Origin: Dhillonvirus LF50P3
DNA: 45,099 bases
Strand: one strand, 5' to 3'
Sequence record: OZ035753.1
The position numbers were made by a program, and so were the translations under genes. Shown here piece by piece: positions 25,624 through 30,017 of this stretch (within the stretch, counting starts at the first letter, position 1; every line of letters starts with the position of its first letter). The notes beneath the pieces are model-generated. The model was given only the letters and a program-made list of their open reading frames with translations, searched no databases and was not told where the DNA came from.

Positions 25624-26081
25624 GTGAATTTTGCAACGTTTATCGCATAAATTTTCGGGACCAGATCGCTGCACGCCCGACGAATTGCCGCGATGTTCTT
25701 AGGACAGTCTTCAATGATGACCAGTTCCGATACGTCCGCATAGCAGACCATTTTGAACACCGCGCACGCTTTAAACTCTGGCGGCGGGGTGTCGTCCAGC
25801 ATGTGGCGCATAAACAACCGCCCTACGGGGAATACTTCCAATTGCTCGGCGGTGGTTTCCCAGCATTCGCGCTGCCGGTTTGTCAGATACGCTATCTCGA
25901 AGCCTTGCTCTTTATACATGCGCAACAGCGGCAGCATATCCATGTTCAGGTCTTCGCGTACGTGCGCTTTGTGCCACTTCGCCCAAAAAGTGGATTTGGT
26001 TTTTATACCCGGCACAAGGTCGGCGCGTGCATCACTCGAACCATTAATAACGCCATCCAGATCACAAATCAGTAGTTTCAT
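25611..26081 (-). CDS. HAD-superfamily phosphatase-like protein (possible nucleotidase)
   Basis: 156-aa ORF with RBS GAGGAA and the HAD motif I signature LLICDLDGV at the N-terminus. Confidence 0.5.
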   Translation of the reverse strand: MKLLICDLDGVINGSSDARADLVPGIKTKSTFWAKWHKAHVREDLNMDMLPLLRMYKEQGFEIAYLTNRQRECWETTAEQLEVFPVGRLFMRHMLDDTPPPEFKACAVFKMVCYADVSELVIIEDCPKNIAAIRRACSDLVPKIYAINVAKFTCNQ

Positions 26082-26302
26082 TTTAATTCCTCAACCAAAT
26101 CCGAACGAACAACTCTGGCGGAAAACTTGTTACACACAAGATGCCAATTTGCGGTTATGACAAGCCAGCCGGTAAGGTCCATACCCAGGATATATTCTGG
26201 ACGTGACACTCGCTTCACACGATCGCGGCGCGGGTCGATGTTATAGTCTCTTTGCATTCGGTCTACTACCGCGGGGTCGCGGTCAACGATTAAGATATTC
26301 AT
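26078..26302 (-). CDS. hypothetical protein
   Basis: 74-aa ORF from the internal ATG (MNILIVDRD); the listed ORF starts at GTG 26311. Packed between the HAD-like and Dam-like genes. Confidence 0.4.
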   Translation of the reverse strand: MNILIVDRDPAVVDRMQRDYNIDPRRDRVKRVSRPEYILGMDLTGWLVITANWHLVCNKFSARVVRSDLVEELK

Positions 26303-26768
26303 GTAACTCACTCTCGCTCATTATTTCAATTTGTGCGCTGCCGATGGGCGGCGCTTCGTCAAATATTATCAATTGCTGGCACTTGTTATTGCTCGGCCCG
26401 ACTTCACCGGTTACAGCGTGTATAAATCTCACCCGCCAGTCCAGAAGAATTATCAGGTTTGCAGTCCTCCGGGCCAGCCTCGCCCACTTCGTCGACGTGT
26501 CCTGATTCAGTAGCATGACAGTCCGGCGTCCGTGCGCTGCGCACTCGACCCACGGCAGCGGGTCGGAATACGGCGGATTGCACCACTTCCACCCTTTCAA
26601 CTCTGCCCAGTCCACATCAAGCGCGCTGTGCTCTGCCGTGAAGTAACGCGGTAGCAGATGATTGGCGTCGCTTGCCGCCATATCGTAACGGAATCGGTAT
26701 TTCCGACGAAGCGGTTTAAATAAAGCTGGCGGCGTGCGCCAGCTATCTTTTTGCTCACTCTTCAGCAT
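26283..26768 (-). CDS. dam: DNA N6-adenine methyltransferase (phage Dam-type)
   Basis: 161-aa ORF with N-terminal WRTPPALF, DMAASDANHL and the catalytic NPPY motif, matching the small phage Dam family. Confidence 0.75.
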   Translation of the reverse strand: MLKSEQKDSWRTPPALFKPLRRKYRFRYDMAASDANHLLPRYFTAEHSALDVDWAELKGWKWCNPPYSDPLPWVECAAHGRRTVMLLNQDTSTKWARLARRTANLIILLDWRVRFIHAVTGEVGPSNNKCQQLIIFDEAPPIGSAQIEIMSESELHEYLNR

Positions 26769-27219
26769 GATCTTGGTCTATCGCGTACAGGGCAATCTTA
26801 TCGCCTTTCGTCAAGATGCGCTGCACGCGCTTTGACTCCTCGGCGCTCATAGGGCGAGCGTTCGGGTATAGGCTGCCGTTTGTGGGATTGCGCCACGCCA
26901 CAAGCACCAGATCTTTCCGGTCGATCTTAGACTGGCGGCCCTTCGGTCGCACGTACGCCTCGGCCCGTTTGCAATGCTCGCGCAGACCTTCGGCAGTGAT
27001 GCGGTTTAGCGCGACGGTGGTTGTGTACCCGGTGCGCTGCATAATACCCATCAACTCATACAGCAGTTCGAAGCGCTCCTCTAACTCCTTGCGCATCTTT
27101 TCCTCGCCTTCATAGCTCGCCAGGTAGGTATCCGCCAGCGCGTTCGCCCGTTCGACCTGTTCGCGGGCTTCGAGGCATTGCGCGGCCCAGTAATTTTTCT
27201 CTTCTTGTAAAATTTTCAT
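26755..27219 (-). CDS. hypothetical protein
   Basis: ORF from MKILQEEKNYWAAQ with RBS GGAGA; promoter-like element 27266–27294 upstream; helical and charged, no confident motif. Confidence 0.5.
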   Translation of the reverse strand: MKILQEEKNYWAAQCLEAREQVERANALADTYLASYEGEEKMRKELEERFELLYELMGIMQRTGYTTTVALNRITAEGLREHCKRAEAYVRPKGRQSKIDRKDLVLVAWRNPTNGSLYPNARPMSAEESKRVQRILTKGDKIALYAIDQDHAEE

Positions 27220-27265
27220 CGTGTTGTCTCCAGGTATTAAAAAGGGCGTCCAACCGGACACCCTT

Positions 27266-27294
27266 AAGATAATGCAACCAATCTAATTATGCAA
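27266..27294 (-). promoter_or_regulatory. sigma70-like promoter candidate with tandem TTGGTTGCA elements
   Basis: Minus-strand reading aTTGGTTGCATaattagaTTGGTTGCATTATCTT: TTGCAT, 17-nt spacer, TATCTT. Confidence 0.45.
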
Positions 27295-27299
27295 CCAAT

Positions 27300-27623
27300 T
27301 TACGAATAAAAATTTGGGTCGCGTGCAACGTCTACCAGATACAGATTGCAGATTCGGTTGCCGTAGTGGCCTGGTGTTCGCTGGCGGCACACAACGGCGT
27401 AGCCTGGAGGAATTGTATTGCCGGTCGCGATAATCCACGCCACGCGTGCGCCCGATAGAGTTTTGCCGTTGCATTCGATGCGCGTGCCGCCATCTGCAGT
27501 GTTAAGGTTGCCGATTTTGCAGCCGGTGGACTTCAGACGAATGACGCCGGTTTTGCTGTCGTAGGTGAATAGCTGGTTAGTCATTGCGACCGAAAAGTCG
27601 ATGGCTTCGAATGTCGTATTCAT
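27300..27623 (-). CDS. HNH-like endonuclease, possibly degenerate
   Basis: 107-aa ORF whose layout (YDSKTGVIRLK...GKTLSGARVAWIIATG...GNRICNLYLV) resembles small phage HNH homing-endonuclease-like proteins, but the canonical His-Asn-His residues are not clearly present. Confidence 0.45.
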   Translation of the reverse strand: MNTTFEAIDFSVAMTNQLFTYDSKTGVIRLKSTGCKIGNLNTADGGTRIECNGKTLSGARVAWIIATGNTIPPGYAVVCRQRTPGHYGNRICNLYLVDVARDPNFYS

Positions 27624-28330
27624 TTTAAATTTTCCTCGTTAACCGCTATCGCGAAGCCGCGCGGAGTGAGCGACCGGATTAATTTTGTGCGGGCTGATTT
27701 GCCTCCGAGGCGACTATACTGCTTCGAGTACCCTTTTTCAACGAAAACGGGTTTCTTCTCTGGCATACGGAAGCCGTTGCCGGTCCATAAGCAGGTCAGC
27801 TTCGGATATGAATCGCGGGCGTTGATGTATTCCGGGAAGAGCGGGTGTACGTCATCCTCCGGCAGATATCCCCCATACTCCCACGGGTCGAATGAGTGAT
27901 CCGGTTTGCGCCACTGGGTGGATAGCACACTGCGCGGATTCTCAATCATATATGGCACTTCGAAGAAGTCACCCAGGTAAGCGGCGATCTTCGCGGTGCG
28001 CACCGCCTTAAGCTGAAAGGCTGGGTCTTTTGCACGCTTGCGCGGGAAAGCTGGCGCACCGCTCACTGCCAGATCCGTGCACGGAGGAAACGCATAGATG
28101 ATATCTGGCGTACCGAAATCGCCATTCATCGCACGGTCTACAAAGTCCAGATCGATAAACTCATTGCGATACCGGATTCCGCGACCATAAATCCGGTAGT
28201 CAAGGTAAGACCCGTGATCGGCTTCGGAGTAGTTGAAGCAATAACACTTATGCCCCATCTCAGCCGCACGCTCAATCATCAAGCCGCTGCCGTCAAACAA
28301 CGACCAGATTGTCATTTTAGCAATAGTCAT
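27620..28330 (-). CDS. C5-cytosine DNA methyltransferase-like protein (compact)
   Basis: 236-aa ORF with motif I-like SLFDGSG, motif IV-like AFPPCTDLAVSG (catalytic Cys, Thr in place of the usual Gln) and motif VI-like MIENPRS; shorter than typical C5 methyltransferases. Confidence 0.5.
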   Translation of the reverse strand: MTIAKMTIWSLFDGSGLMIERAAEMGHKCYCFNYSEADHGSYLDYRIYGRGIRYRNEFIDLDFVDRAMNGDFGTPDIIYAFPPCTDLAVSGAPAFPRKRAKDPAFQLKAVRTAKIAAYLGDFFEVPYMIENPRSVLSTQWRKPDHSFDPWEYGGYLPEDDVHPLFPEYINARDSYPKLTCLWTGNGFRMPEKKPVFVEKGYSKQYSRLGGKSARTKLIRSLTPRGFAIAVNEENLK

Positions 28331-29787
28331 TTGCGCGCCTTTTTAGCTTTCATGTATTCCATCAAGTCGTCCTGGATATCTCGCTTACTGTCGCGGCGCT
28401 CGGCGACCAATTCGTCCAGTGTCCCGCGCGCCTGGATAATGTAGACGAATACCGGTCGAGGGTGTCCGGCCTGCATCTGGCGAACCGGCCCGATACGTTC
28501 AACGATCTGCGAAAAGTGCTCAAAGTTCCAGGTATCGGAGAAGATTGCCAGGTGATGACCGCCGTCCTGCAAGTTAAGGCCGTGGCCCGCCGATGCCGGG
28601 TGCGCAAACATGATGGGGATCTCGCCTCTGTTCCACGCTTCCATATCCTTATTGCCCTGCTTACCTTTACCCAGCGCAACGCCGTGCGGAAATTTCTTCT
28701 TAAGACGTGCCAGGTCATGCTTGTACTGATACGCAACGAGCAACGGCGCACCGTTCAACTCCTCCACGATACTTTCCAGCGCGTCCAGTTTGGCGTCGTG
28801 AATCTTCACCCACTCGTCGGTCCTTTCGCCGTCTTCGTCCACCTTATACACAGCGCCGGAAGCAAGCTGAAGGCACTTAATTGTCTTCGATGCCGCGTTC
28901 GCCGCTTCCACAGTCCCGCTTTCCAGTTCGGCGAATAGCTCGCTTTCAAACTGGTCGTAAATCTTGCGGGCTTTCTTCGGCAGGTCCACAACAACAGGCG
29001 TATAGATTGGCTTGTCGCACCCGAAATATTCAGCCGCGTCAACGGTGAGGGATACATCTGACAGACGTTGTTGTATCTCTTTCTCGGAGTTCTTTAGCGG
29101 AGCGTGCTGCATAGTGAAGCTGCCAGGCTTAACAGGCTTGCTAATGAACCAGCGGTCGGTAAATGCCTTATAGCTACTGCCGAGGCGTTCGCCACCGTCG
29201 ACAAACCACGTCTGACCCCATAAGTCTTTCAGCCCGTTGGGTGCGGGTGTGCCTGTAAGGTTAATCCAGCGCTTGACGTGTTTATGTGCAATCGCTGCCA
29301 GTGCGCGGGCGCGCTTGCTCCCCTGCTTGCTACGATAGCCTTTCAGCTTAGTCGATTCATCGGCAACAACGACCGTAAAGGGCCACGCATCGCCGTAATA
29401 TTCGACCAGCCACTCAACCACATCGTAGTTAACACAAACCACGTTAGCGTCGCTCTCAAGCGCGGCAATACGGTCCTTCTCCGGTCCGGTGCCGTCTACG
29501 ACCAGCAGGGATGAGAACCGCCATTTCTCCTGTTCCGGGGGCCATGTACCCGACGCAACACGCAGCGGGGCCAGCACCAGTACGCGGTCCTCATGATGGG
29601 ACAGGACGCCAGTCTGGAACATTTTATTCAGCGCCCACATTGTCGCGCCGGTTTTACCGGATCCCATTGTCGCCCATATATTACATCGCTTATGCTTGAG
29701 GATGAACGCGGTTATCAACTTCTGATATTCGCGGCGTCGGAAACGTGCCATATCTTTATTCCGCCTTTTTCCAGACTTCTGTTTCAC
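28327..29787 (-). CDS. SNF2/DEAD-like superfamily II helicase
   Basis: 486-aa ORF with Walker A-like MGSGKTG, DEAD-box-like VVADESTKL and C-terminal helicase-domain motifs. Confidence 0.8.
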   Translation of the reverse strand: MKQKSGKRRNKDMARFRRREYQKLITAFILKHKRCNIWATMGSGKTGATMWALNKMFQTGVLSHHEDRVLVLAPLRVASGTWPPEQEKWRFSSLLVVDGTGPEKDRIAALESDANVVCVNYDVVEWLVEYYGDAWPFTVVVADESTKLKGYRSKQGSKRARALAAIAHKHVKRWINLTGTPAPNGLKDLWGQTWFVDGGERLGSSYKAFTDRWFISKPVKPGSFTMQHAPLKNSEKEIQQRLSDVSLTVDAAEYFGCDKPIYTPVVVDLPKKARKIYDQFESELFAELESGTVEAANAASKTIKCLQLASGAVYKVDEDGERTDEWVKIHDAKLDALESIVEELNGAPLLVAYQYKHDLARLKKKFPHGVALGKGKQGNKDMEAWNRGEIPIMFAHPASAGHGLNLQDGGHHLAIFSDTWNFEHFSQIVERIGPVRQMQAGHPRPVFVYIIQARGTLDELVAERRDSKRDIQDDLMEYMKAKKARK

Positions 29788-29989
29788 TGTTCCAGTTCCT
29801 TTTTGTGGCGTCGTAGTTGGTGGCGTGTCCGATGTGCACGCCGGTCGCCCGGAAGCTCTTAAATTTTTGCCAGCACACCGTTAACGGCAGCGGGTAATTC
29901 ATGCCCGCGATAAACCATACGCGATCGCCTGGTTTGCATTCGCCCAGTGTGGTGAGTCGGTAGTGTTCTTTCATCGTCATGTCTCCCAA
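29756..29989 (-). CDS. hypothetical small protein
   Basis: 77-aa ORF overlapping the helicase start; no motif; may start at an internal Met. Confidence 0.3.
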   Translation of the reverse strand: MGDMTMKEHYRLTTLGECKPGDRVWFIAGMNYPLPLTVCWQKFKSFRATGVHIGHATNYDATKRNWNSETEVWKKAE

Positions 29990-30017
29990 AAATGGCGGGA
30001 CAAGCCCGCCGTATTAA

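What the first reader, a model, noticed from the sequence alone, without database searches (positions are those of the whole stretch)
27620..28330. Atypically short C5-methyltransferase-like protein with Thr in the Pro-Cys-Gln position
Seen directly: motifs I (LFDGSG), IV (FPPCTDLAVSG) and VI (ENPRS) are present in a protein of only 236 residues, and the residue after the catalytic Cys is Thr rather than the usual Gln. The C-terminal 110 residues carry no obvious target-recognition domain. Inference: either a minimal methyltransferase with unusual specificity, or a paralog repurposed for another base modification or for nucleic-acid binding without catalysis.
Basis: inference. Interest (0 to 1): 0.45.

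Follow-up and report, generated by a model that had tools for sequence, protein, structure and literature searches.

The report
Known minimal phage cytosine-C5 DNA methyltransferase
This gene encodes an ordinary member of a large, already annotated family of very small phage DNA cytosine methyltransferases; a 54%-identical relative with the same unusual motifs has been shown to make 5-methylcytosine, so it is not a new kind of enzyme.

Summary
A 236-aa ORF lies at 27620..28330 on the minus strand and carries LFDGSG, FPPCTDLAVSG and IENPR.

The window is a Dhillonvirus-type coliphage. A 100%-identical protein is already deposited and annotated as a C-5 cytosine methylase. The protein belongs to PHROG 757. 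tblastn finds it in 1511 phage records, and the family spans about 1900 clusters at 50% identity, nearly all 200-260 aa. Small size and Pro-Cys-Thr are therefore family traits: Cys is kept in 115/123 representatives, Thr in 104/123 and Glu of ENP in 120/123.

The AlphaFold model (pLDDT 91) matches only C5-methyltransferases at the top of the fold searches, best DNMT3A/B. These also have a very short target-recognition region.

The protein is 54% identical over its full length to the KarlJaspers/K42 phage "Dcm". That enzyme has the same PPCTDL / IENP / KxTC motifs. It raises 5mC in retron Ec86 msDNA (LC-MS), loses its effect when C82/E128/K175/K176 are mutated, and triggers that retron.

The best reading is an active orphan SAM-dependent DNA C5-methyltransferase in the replication module. 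CCWGG is the presumed target but has not been rigorously mapped. Interest is low.

The parts
27620..28330 (-). CDS of the 236-aa minimal C5-cytosine DNA methyltransferase (stop codon at 27620-27622). An alternative start at Met6 would begin at 28315.
28283..28300 (-). Motif I, LFDGSG (residues 11-16), the SAM-binding loop after strand beta-1.
   Evidence: F12, G14, S15 and G16 are invariant in 32 close homologues. The motif aligns to DLFAGIGG of E. coli Dcm in hhalign. In the wider family it reads L[FY]DxTG.
28232..28234 (-). Asn33 at the motif II position, the end of strand beta-2, which is normally an acidic residue that binds the SAM ribose.
   Evidence: Asp in 111/123 family representatives, but Asn in the window's clade and in KarlJaspers Dcm. 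Assigning it to motif II is an inference from the hhalign register.
28058..28090 (-). Motif IV, FPPCTDLAVSG (residues 81-91), with catalytic Cys84 followed by Thr85.
   Evidence: Family conservation: P82 114/123, C84 115/123, T85 104/123, G91 122/123. The motif aligns to GFPCQPFSLAG of Dcm. It corresponds to C82 of K42/KarlJaspers Dcm.
27932..27946 (-). Motif VI, IENPR (residues 129-133). Glu130 is the presumed proton donor to cytosine N3.
   Evidence: Family conservation: E130 120/123, N131 115/123, P132 121/123. The motif aligns to LENV of canonical enzymes. It corresponds to E128 of K42 Dcm.
27809..27865 (-). Family-specific insertion (residues 156-174, LPEDDVHPLFPEYINARDS) between the EYGGY segment and the motif VIII-like strand.
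   Evidence: Absent (gapped) in about a quarter of family representatives at positions 160-167. No counterpart in the canonical alignment.
27779..27808 (-). Motif VIII-like strand YPKLTCLWTG (residues 175-184). Lys177 is the presumed contact with the flipped cytosine or its phosphate.
   Evidence: Family conservation: Y175 120/123, K177 115/123, T179 112/123, W182 119/123. K175/K176 of K42 Dcm were assigned as substrate-binding by superposition on DNMT3A and were mutated in the dead enzyme. The second Lys is Leu178 in the window protein.
27680..27778 (-). Short variable segment (residues 185-217), in the position of the target-recognition domain.
   Evidence: Residues 191-210 form the least conserved block of the C-terminal half (mean top-residue frequency 0.35 against 0.6-0.7 in the flanks). 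The distance from motif VI to motif IX is 92 residues here, against 126-179 in canonical phage and E. coli enzymes.
27641..27679 (-). Motif IX-like IRSLTPRGFAIAV (residues 218-230), possibly fused with what remains of motif X.
   Evidence: Family conservation: R219 114/123, T222 97/123, P223 115/123, G225 112/123. hhalign places it on RRLTPRE of Dcm. Only 12 residues follow TPR, so there is no separate QxGN(A/S)V motif X.
28327..29787 (-). Upstream SNF2-type DNA helicase. Its stop overlaps the methyltransferase start (ATGA).
   Evidence: PF00176 1.8e-10. phrog_62 DNA helicase 1.7e-156. Junction sequence.
27300..27623 (-). Downstream 107-aa HNH-type (homing) endonuclease ORF. Its start overlaps the methyltransferase stop (ATGA).
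   Evidence: phrog_99 HNH endonuclease 4e-16. Annotated as a homing endonuclease in relatives. Junction sequence.
26283..26768 (-). Second orphan methyltransferase of the module: a Dam-like N6-adenine methyltransferase, 161 aa.
   Evidence: PF05869 Dam 5.2e-35. phrog_111.

Best explanation
The ORF encodes an active, orphan, SAM-dependent DNA cytosine-C5 methyltransferase of the minimal phage 'Dcm-like' family (PHROG 757). It is expressed as part of the Dhillonvirus replication module, translationally coupled to the SNF2 helicase upstream.

The chemistry below is inferred from the family and the fold. The N-terminal Rossmann half (LFDGSG, Asn33) binds SAM. The target cytosine is flipped out. 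Cys84 of the Pro-Cys-Thr loop attacks C6, and Glu130 of ENP protonates N3. Lys177 and Arg141 hold the flipped nucleotide. The methyl group is transferred to C5, and beta-elimination then releases the enzyme.

The enzyme is small for three reasons. The segment between motifs VIII and IX, the target-recognition region, is cut down to about 20-33 residues. The 28-32 residues that canonical enzymes have between motifs IX and X are missing. There is no N-terminal extension. This architecture is closest to the DNMT3 catalytic domain.

The biological role is also inferred: methylating replicating phage DNA to blunt methylation-sensitive host restriction. The presumed target is CCWGG, of which the 45-kb window has 155 copies. 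A known cost is that the same activity methylates retron Ec86 (Eco1) msDNA and triggers that abortive-infection system.
For: Fold:
- AF2 model with pLDDT 91 and pTM 0.89.
- The top 39 Foldseek hits are DNMT3A/B/C, E about 3e-7.

Sequence link to the canonical family:
- Three relatives at 63% identity pass the PF00145 gathering score over motifs I-IV.
- Profile-profile alignment to eight canonical enzymes puts motifs I, IV, VI and IX in register, E = 0.0027.

Purifying selection on catalytic residues in 123 cluster representatives:
- C84 115, E130 120, N131 115, P132 121, R141 108, K177 115, R219 114.

Experimental anchor:
- 54% identity over 234 residues to KarlJaspers Dcm.
- Residues C82/E128/K175/K176 of KarlJaspers Dcm match the numbering published for phage K42 Dcm.
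- K42 Dcm gave high 5mC in msDNA by LC-MS. The quadruple mutant did not. All four retron escapers had lesions in the 711-bp dcm gene.

Supporting observations:
- Pantoea phage AAS23 gp52 (52% identical) sits in a phage whose DNA behaved as Dcm-methylated in digests.
- Klebsiella phage KP36 gp74 (44% identical) sits in a phage whose 155 EcoRII sites were uncut.

Context:
- The gene lies in the replication module between the helicase and an HNH endonuclease, with ATGA overlaps.
- CCWGG is not avoided in the window: 155 sites, observed/expected 0.94.
Against: No activity data exist for this exact protein or for any Dhillonvirus orthologue that I could find.

The window protein itself has no Pfam, NCBIfam or PDB sequence hit.

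It deviates from canonical enzymes at several positions. It has Asn33 where most of the family has the motif-II Asp. It has Leu178 where K42 Dcm has its second Lys. It has Thr85 instead of Gln, and no separate motif X.

CCWGG specificity was assumed in the K42 study by analogy with E. coli Dcm. It was not mapped. Those experiments were done in dcm+ MG1655, where empty-vector msDNA nevertheless had low 5mC.

The AAS23 and KP36 digests are confounded by possible host Dcm.

The protein has no TRD similarity to E. coli Dcm.
Confidence: 0.85

Rival explanations
1. It is an active C5-methyltransferase, but its sequence specificity is not CCWGG. With only about 20-33 residues in the TRD position, it may read a shorter or degenerate motif as DNMT3 does with CpG. 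Alternatively it may need dimerisation to read a 5-bp palindrome. The name 'Dcm-like' would then be misleading.
For: The TRD region is far shorter than in E. coli Dcm, and no similarity to Dcm exists outside the catalytic motifs. The best structural matches are DNMT3 enzymes, which read 2 bp and work as oligomers. The K42 study assumed the motif. It found low 5mC on msDNA in a dcm+ host without the phage enzyme, which is odd if the site were an ordinary Dcm site. The authors also mention toxicity of Dcm itself.
Against: Changing CCTGG to AATGG, ACTGG or CATGG in the msDNA stem abolished defence. Phages carrying family members had EcoRII-resistant or 'Dcm-methylated' DNA. The region flanking the TRD position is strongly conserved across the family, which fits one shared specificity.
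Confidence: 0.2
2. The enzyme transfers something other than a methyl group (for example carboxymethyl from Cx-SAM), or acts on RNA/tRNA as Dnmt2 does. The smaller Thr after the catalytic Cys would open the cofactor pocket.
Against: 5mC rose strongly when the 54%-identical K42 enzyme, which has the same PCT motif, was expressed. These structural matches score no better than ordinary DNA methyltransferases. No cofactor-synthesis gene was seen among the neighbouring genes.
Confidence: 0.04
3. It is a catalytically dead paralog that only binds DNA or SAM, for instance as a regulator or as a decoy against restriction or defence systems.
For: Asn33 replaces the usual acidic SAM-ribose ligand, and Leu178 replaces a Lys that was mutated in the dead K42 enzyme. 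A few remote family members have lost both Cys and Glu, for example P0243.
Against: Cys84, Glu130, Asn131, Pro132, Arg141 and Lys177 are all intact and are under strong conservation in the family. KarlJaspers/K42 Dcm also has Asn at the motif II position and is active. Position 178 is variable among close relatives.
Confidence: 0.03

Closest known systems
Phage K42 / KarlJaspers (Bas06) 'Dcm-like C5 cytosine methyltransferase', the trigger of retron Ec86 (Eco1); PHROG 757
   Same: Same length (236 aa). 54% identity over the whole protein. Same motif variants: LFDGSG, Asn at motif II, FPPCTDLA, IENP, K-x-TCLWTGNGF and IRSLTPRGFA. Both are orphan genes in lytic siphoviruses of E. coli.
   Different: The host phage lineage differs: Dhillonvirus here, Drexlerviridae/Hanrivervirus there. 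The gene neighbourhood differs: here the gene is ATGA-coupled to an SNF2 helicase and an HNH ORF. Leu178 replaces the second Lys (K176). No direct activity or retron data exist for this orthologue.
Canonical bacterial and phage C5-cytosine methyltransferases (Pfam PF00145: E. coli Dcm, M.HhaI, M.HaeIII, phage RB16 and P0094 enzymes)
   Different: The window protein has no PF00145 hit. It has PCT instead of PCQ and ENP instead of ENV. The distance from motif VI to IX is 92 residues against 126-179. It has no separate QxGN(A/S)V motif X. It is 236 aa, against 287-472 aa.
Eukaryotic DNMT3A/3B/3C catalytic domains
   Different: Sequence identity is only 12-17%. The PWWP/ADD regulatory domains are absent, and there is no DNMT3L-type partner. 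The oligomeric state is unknown. The resemblance is one of architecture, not evidence of membership.

Membership tests
C5-cytosine methyltransferase superfamily (PF00145-type fold) | Class I SAM-methyltransferase fold whose closest structural neighbours are C5-MTases | tested here: met
C5-cytosine methyltransferase superfamily (PF00145-type fold) | Motif IV Pro-Cys catalytic nucleophile | tested here: met
   P83-C84 is present. Cys is conserved in 115/123 representatives and aligns with PCQ of Dcm. The following residue is Thr, not Gln (104/123).
C5-cytosine methyltransferase superfamily (PF00145-type fold) | Motif VI Glu-Asn-Val (Glu protonates N3) | tested here: met
   E130-N131-P132 (ENP). 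Conservation is E 120/123 and N 115/123. It aligns with ENV.
C5-cytosine methyltransferase superfamily (PF00145-type fold) | Motif I FxGxG SAM loop and acidic motif II residue | tested here: inconclusive
   F12-D-G14-S-G16 fits FxGxG, but the wider family has L[FY]DxTG. The motif II position is Asn33 here, against Asp in 111/123. Active K42/KarlJaspers Dcm shares Asn.
C5-cytosine methyltransferase superfamily (PF00145-type fold) | Motif VIII QxRxR basic residues at the flipped cytosine | tested here: inconclusive
   There is no QxRxR. A conserved K177 on strand 179-184 and R141 are the candidates. The assignment rests on the published superposition of K42 Dcm on DNMT3A. I had no model coordinates to measure it.
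C5-cytosine methyltransferase superfamily (PF00145-type fold) | Motif IX RxLTPRE | tested here: met
   I218-R-S-L-T-P-R224 aligns to RRLTPRE of Dcm. Conservation is R219 114/123 and P223 115/123.
C5-cytosine methyltransferase superfamily (PF00145-type fold) | Separate motif X QxGN(A/S)V about 30 residues after motif IX | tested here: not met
   Only 12 residues follow TPR (GFAIAVNEENLK). All eight canonical enzymes have GN[AS][VI] 28-32 residues after motif IX. Fusion of motifs IX and X is my inference.
C5-cytosine methyltransferase superfamily (PF00145-type fold) | Pfam PF00145 gathering threshold | tested here: not met
   The window protein has no hit at E <= 10. Relatives P0022, P0026 and P0058 (63% identical) score 24.7-28.5 bits against a cut-off of 22, over motifs I-IV only.
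C5-cytosine methyltransferase superfamily (PF00145-type fold) | Formation of 5-methylcytosine in DNA | not testable with these tools
   Shown by LC-MS for the 54%-identical K42 Dcm. Nothing is available for this protein.
Minimal phage 'Dcm-like' methyltransferases (PHROG 757; K42/KarlJaspers Dcm) | Full-length homology, length about 200-260 aa | tested here: met
   phrog_757 E = 7.4e-84 over residues 2-234. 54% identity to KarlJaspers Dcm. Family median length is 240 aa.
Minimal phage 'Dcm-like' methyltransferases (PHROG 757; K42/KarlJaspers Dcm) | Residues mutated in the inactive K42 enzyme (C82, E128, K175, K176) | tested here: met
   C84, E130 and K177 are present. The fourth position is Leu178, which is variable among close relatives (K, F, Q, T, E).
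Minimal phage 'Dcm-like' methyltransferases (PHROG 757; K42/KarlJaspers Dcm) | Orphan gene in a phage genome without a cognate restriction enzyme | tested here: met
   The neighbours are a helicase, an HNH homing endonuclease, a ligase-like ORF and a Dam-like MTase. There is no PADLOC hit.
E. coli Dcm / M.EcoRII orthologues (CCWGG-specific) | Sequence similarity extending through the target-recognition domain | tested here: not met
   hhalign of the family against Dcm alone aligns only motif IV (E = 0.2). Against eight canonical enzymes only the catalytic motifs align, and the 170-residue Dcm variable region is gapped.
E. coli Dcm / M.EcoRII orthologues (CCWGG-specific) | Methylation of the inner cytosine of CCWGG | not testable with these tools
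   Assumed, not mapped, for K42 Dcm. Digest data for AAS23 and KP36 are indirect and confounded by the host.

The most novel reading that the evidence does not exclude
The PHROG 757 enzymes are a distinct, DNMT3-like minimal clade of C5-methyltransferases whose true recognition sequence or mode of recognition differs from E. coli Dcm. Possibilities are a shorter or degenerate motif, or obligate dimer read-out of the palindrome by a TRD of about 30 residues. The widespread 'Dcm-like / CCWGG' label would then be an untested assumption. If so, they would be the smallest sequence-reading C5-methyltransferases known, and a compact scaffold for studying how so little protein specifies a target.
Probability: 0.2. 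Interest if true: 0.4.

Novelty: already known. Interest (0 to 1): 0.15.

Why it matters
For a genome scan this is a routine call: an annotated orphan cytosine methyltransferase in a common coliphage genus. Two points give it modest residual value.

First, the family escapes Pfam and NCBIfam. Automated annotation therefore often calls it hypothetical, and older papers missed it. The KP36 authors, for example, reported no cytosine methyltransferase gene.

Second, the same activity that is presumed to shield phage DNA from restriction is what retron Ec86/Eco1 senses. Presence of this gene may therefore predict sensitivity of the phage to that retron.

The direct sequence specificity of the family has still not been mapped rigorously.

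Tried and rejected
- **Sequence libraries.** Pfam, NCBIfam and PADLOC scans of the window protein gave nothing.
- **PDB by sequence.** phmmer and profile searches of PDB sequences, including with a PF00145-positive relative, gave no methyltransferase hit. Only fold comparison linked the protein to solved C5-MTases.
- **Profile comparison with Dcm alone.** hhalign of the close-homologue profile against E. coli Dcm aligned only motif IV. I therefore built a 123-sequence family profile and an eight-sequence canonical profile. A forced global alignment was uninformative in the C-terminal half.
- **Literature on specificity.** Searches for a direct methylation-motif determination for this family found none. 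The Druantia preprint and the retron Eco2 paper were relevant only indirectly.
- **CCWGG counts.** Counts in the window neither support nor exclude CCWGG as the target, because the site is simply not avoided.
- **Repurposed-paralog and non-catalytic readings.** Rejected because the catalytic residues are conserved and because of the K42 experimental data.
- **Fusion partners as functional hints.** Longer family members gave no informative Pfam domains.

Full report
**What is there**

The window is a Dhillonvirus-type coliphage. Window 26000-30000 is 92-94% identical to phages Gluttony_ev152, welsh, jat, Sponge, SO-1, EK99P-1 and PaulFeyerabend.

A 236-codon ORF lies at 27620..28330 on the minus strand. 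Its ATG overlaps the stop of the upstream SNF2-type helicase (28327..29787) as ATGA. Its stop overlaps the start of a 107-aa HNH-type ORF (27300..27623) in the same way. The three genes therefore form one translationally coupled block in the replication module. A ligase-like ORF and a 161-aa Dam-like N6-adenine methyltransferase follow downstream.

A 100%-identical protein is already deposited for phage vB_EcoS-UDS3lw as 'C-5 cytosine-specific DNA methylase'. BASEL Dhillonviruses carry it as 'Dcm-like C5 cytosine methyltransferase'.

**The family**

The protein has no Pfam, NCBIfam, PADLOC or PDB-sequence hit. It matches PHROG 757 'DNA methyltransferase' at E = 7e-84.

- tblastn finds it in 1511 phage records, from Escherichia, Klebsiella, Salmonella, Shigella, Campylobacter, Vibrio, Arthrobacter and other phages.
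- The large protein collection holds 2880 homologues.
- An exhaustive profile search finds 1942 clusters at 50% identity with E <= 1e-3.
- Lengths cluster tightly. The median is 240 aa among the 123 representatives of 195-340 aa that I aligned. Small size is therefore a property of the family and not a truncation.

In those 123 representatives the presumed catalytic positions are strongly conserved:

| Residue | Conserved in |
|---|---|
| Pro82 | 114/123 |
| Cys84 | 115/123 |
| Gly91 | 122/123 |
| Glu130 | 120/123 |
| Asn131 | 115/123 |
| Pro132 | 121/123 |
| Arg141 | 108/123 |
| Lys177 | 115/123 |
| Trp182 | 119/123 |
| Arg219 | 114/123 |
| Pro223 | 115/123 |

The residue after Cys is Thr in 104/123. 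It is Asp in 7, Arg in 4, Glu in 3 and Gln in only 1. Pro-Cys-Thr is therefore the family norm.

**Fold and motif mapping**

An AlphaFold2 model built on 32 homologues is confident, with pLDDT 91 and pTM 0.89.

- Foldseek gives DNMT3A/B/C as its first 39 hits, E about 3e-7.

At the sequence level, three relatives at 63% identity pass the PF00145 gathering score, but only over motifs I-IV.

I built a profile of eight canonical enzymes: E. coli Dcm and seven phage enzymes of 287-360 aa. Profile-profile alignment to the family profile gave E = 0.0027. It put these motifs in register:

| Motif | Family | Canonical |
|---|---|---|
| I | LFDGSG | LFAGIGG |
| IV | FPPCT | GFPCQ |
| VI | IENP | LENV |
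| IX | IRSLTPR | RRLTPRE |

The distance from motif VI to motif IX is 92 residues here, against 126-179 in the canonical set. Only 12 residues follow TPR, whereas canonical enzymes have QxGN(A/S)V 28-32 residues further on.

Within the C-terminal half, only residues 191-210 are poorly conserved. The place where a target-recognition domain sits therefore holds some 20-33 residues. A family-specific insertion at 156-174 is missing in about a quarter of members. A TRD position exists, but it is minimal, as in DNMT3.

From my own recollection and not tested here, DNMT3A also lacks Gln after the catalytic Cys (PCNDL).

**Experimental anchor from the literature**

A preprint on retron Ec86 (bioRxiv 10.1101/2023.08.16.553469) isolated escapers of phage K42, which is 95.4% identical to KarlJaspers Bas06.

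- All four escapers had lesions in or just upstream of a 711-bp dcm gene.
- Expressing this Dcm was toxic only when the retron was present.
- LC-MS showed high 5mC in msDNA with wild-type Dcm. 5mC was low with a C82A/E128A/K175A/K176A mutant or with empty vector.
- Changing the CCTGG in the msDNA stem abolished defence.
- 34 of 35 Ec86-sensitive phages in their collection encode such a Dcm.
- A later paper cites this as established (PMC12916289).

The KarlJaspers gene is 711 bp. Its product has Cys82 (FPPCTDL), Glu128 (IENP) and Lys175/176 (FKKTC), exactly the published numbering. The window protein is 54% identical to it over 234 residues, E = 2e-86.

Two weaker supports:

- Pantoea phage AAS23 gp52 is 52% identical. 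Its authors found no conserved domain but a 99.7% HHpred match to a C5-MTase, and reported 'Dam and Dcm methylated' DNA in digests (PMC8004638).
- Klebsiella phage KP36 gp74 is 44% identical. KP36 DNA had 155 EcoRII sites in silico and none was cut. The 2013 authors saw no cytosine methyltransferase gene and credited the host (PMC3620542).

**Mechanism and role**

Shown: fold, motif conservation, and homology to an enzyme that raises 5mC.

Inferred: SAM binding by the N-terminal half, Cys84 attack on C6, Glu130 protonation of N3, and Lys177/Arg141 holding the flipped nucleotide. Also inferred is protection of phage DNA from methylation-sensitive restriction. The window has 155 CCWGG sites, observed/expected 0.94, so the site is not avoided. 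The known cost of this activity is activation of retron Ec86/Eco1.

**Open points**

- The K42 work took CCWGG from E. coli Dcm rather than mapping it. It was done in dcm+ MG1655, where msDNA without the phage enzyme still had little 5mC.
- The enzyme shares nothing with Dcm's recognition domain.
- The window clade, like active KarlJaspers Dcm, has Asn33 where 111/123 family members have the motif-II Asp. The window protein has Leu178 where K42 has its second Lys, a position that varies among close relatives.

None of this argues against activity. It does leave the exact specificity and the mode of DNA recognition untested for this orthologue.

**Verdict**

- This is an already known and already annotated protein family with a characterised member.
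- Interest is low (0.15).
- The most novel reading still open is that this DNMT3-like minimal clade does not recognise DNA the way its 'Dcm-like' label implies (probability about 0.2).

Noticed in passing
window 27300..29787 (-): The SNF2-type helicase, the methyltransferase and the 107-aa HNH-type ORF are linked by two ATGA stop/start overlaps. This suggests translational coupling of all three. Some close relatives align in two pieces, with about 240 extra bases in this region, so there is an indel polymorphism nearby that I did not locate.
   Followed up: partly
window 26283..26768 (-): A second, also very small (161 aa), orphan methyltransferase lies here: Dam-like N6-adenine, PF05869 5e-35. 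The module therefore encodes both adenine and cytosine methylation.
   Followed up: partly
window 26755..27261 (-): This 168-aa ORF matches phrog_10530 'DNA ligase' (7e-96) but has no Pfam hit. One GenBank annotator wrote 'Possible DNA ligase but no evidence'. At 168 aa it would be far smaller than known ligases, so the label looks doubtful.
   Followed up: no
window 28232..28234 (-), residue Asn33: The window's clade and the experimentally active KarlJaspers/K42 Dcm have Asn where 111 of 123 family representatives have Asp. This position is normally the acidic residue that binds the SAM ribose.
   Followed up: partly
proteins P0243 and P0261, remote family members, not in the window: P0243 (414 aa) has lost both the catalytic Cys (APPGRDL) and the Glu (ISNP). 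P0261 (401 aa) has a long low-complexity Ser/Ala/Pro/Glu-rich N-terminus, with FPPCTNF and MENP. Both look like non-phage, possibly eukaryotic, versions of the family, and one is probably inactive.
   Followed up: no
L017:17553-18245 (Klebsiella phage KP36 gp74): KP36 carries a family member (44% identical, with PSCTLL instead of PPCTDL). The 2013 paper nevertheless reported no cytosine methyltransferase gene and attributed complete EcoRII resistance of the phage DNA to the host. This shows how the family escapes domain-based annotation.
   Followed up: partly
literature: bioRxiv 10.1101/2023.08.16.553469: The retron Ec86 experiments were done in dcm+ E. coli MG1655, yet msDNA without the phage enzyme had little 5mC and the retron was not self-activated. 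Either host Dcm cannot reach the msDNA CCTGG, or the phage enzyme does not have the same target.
   Followed up: no
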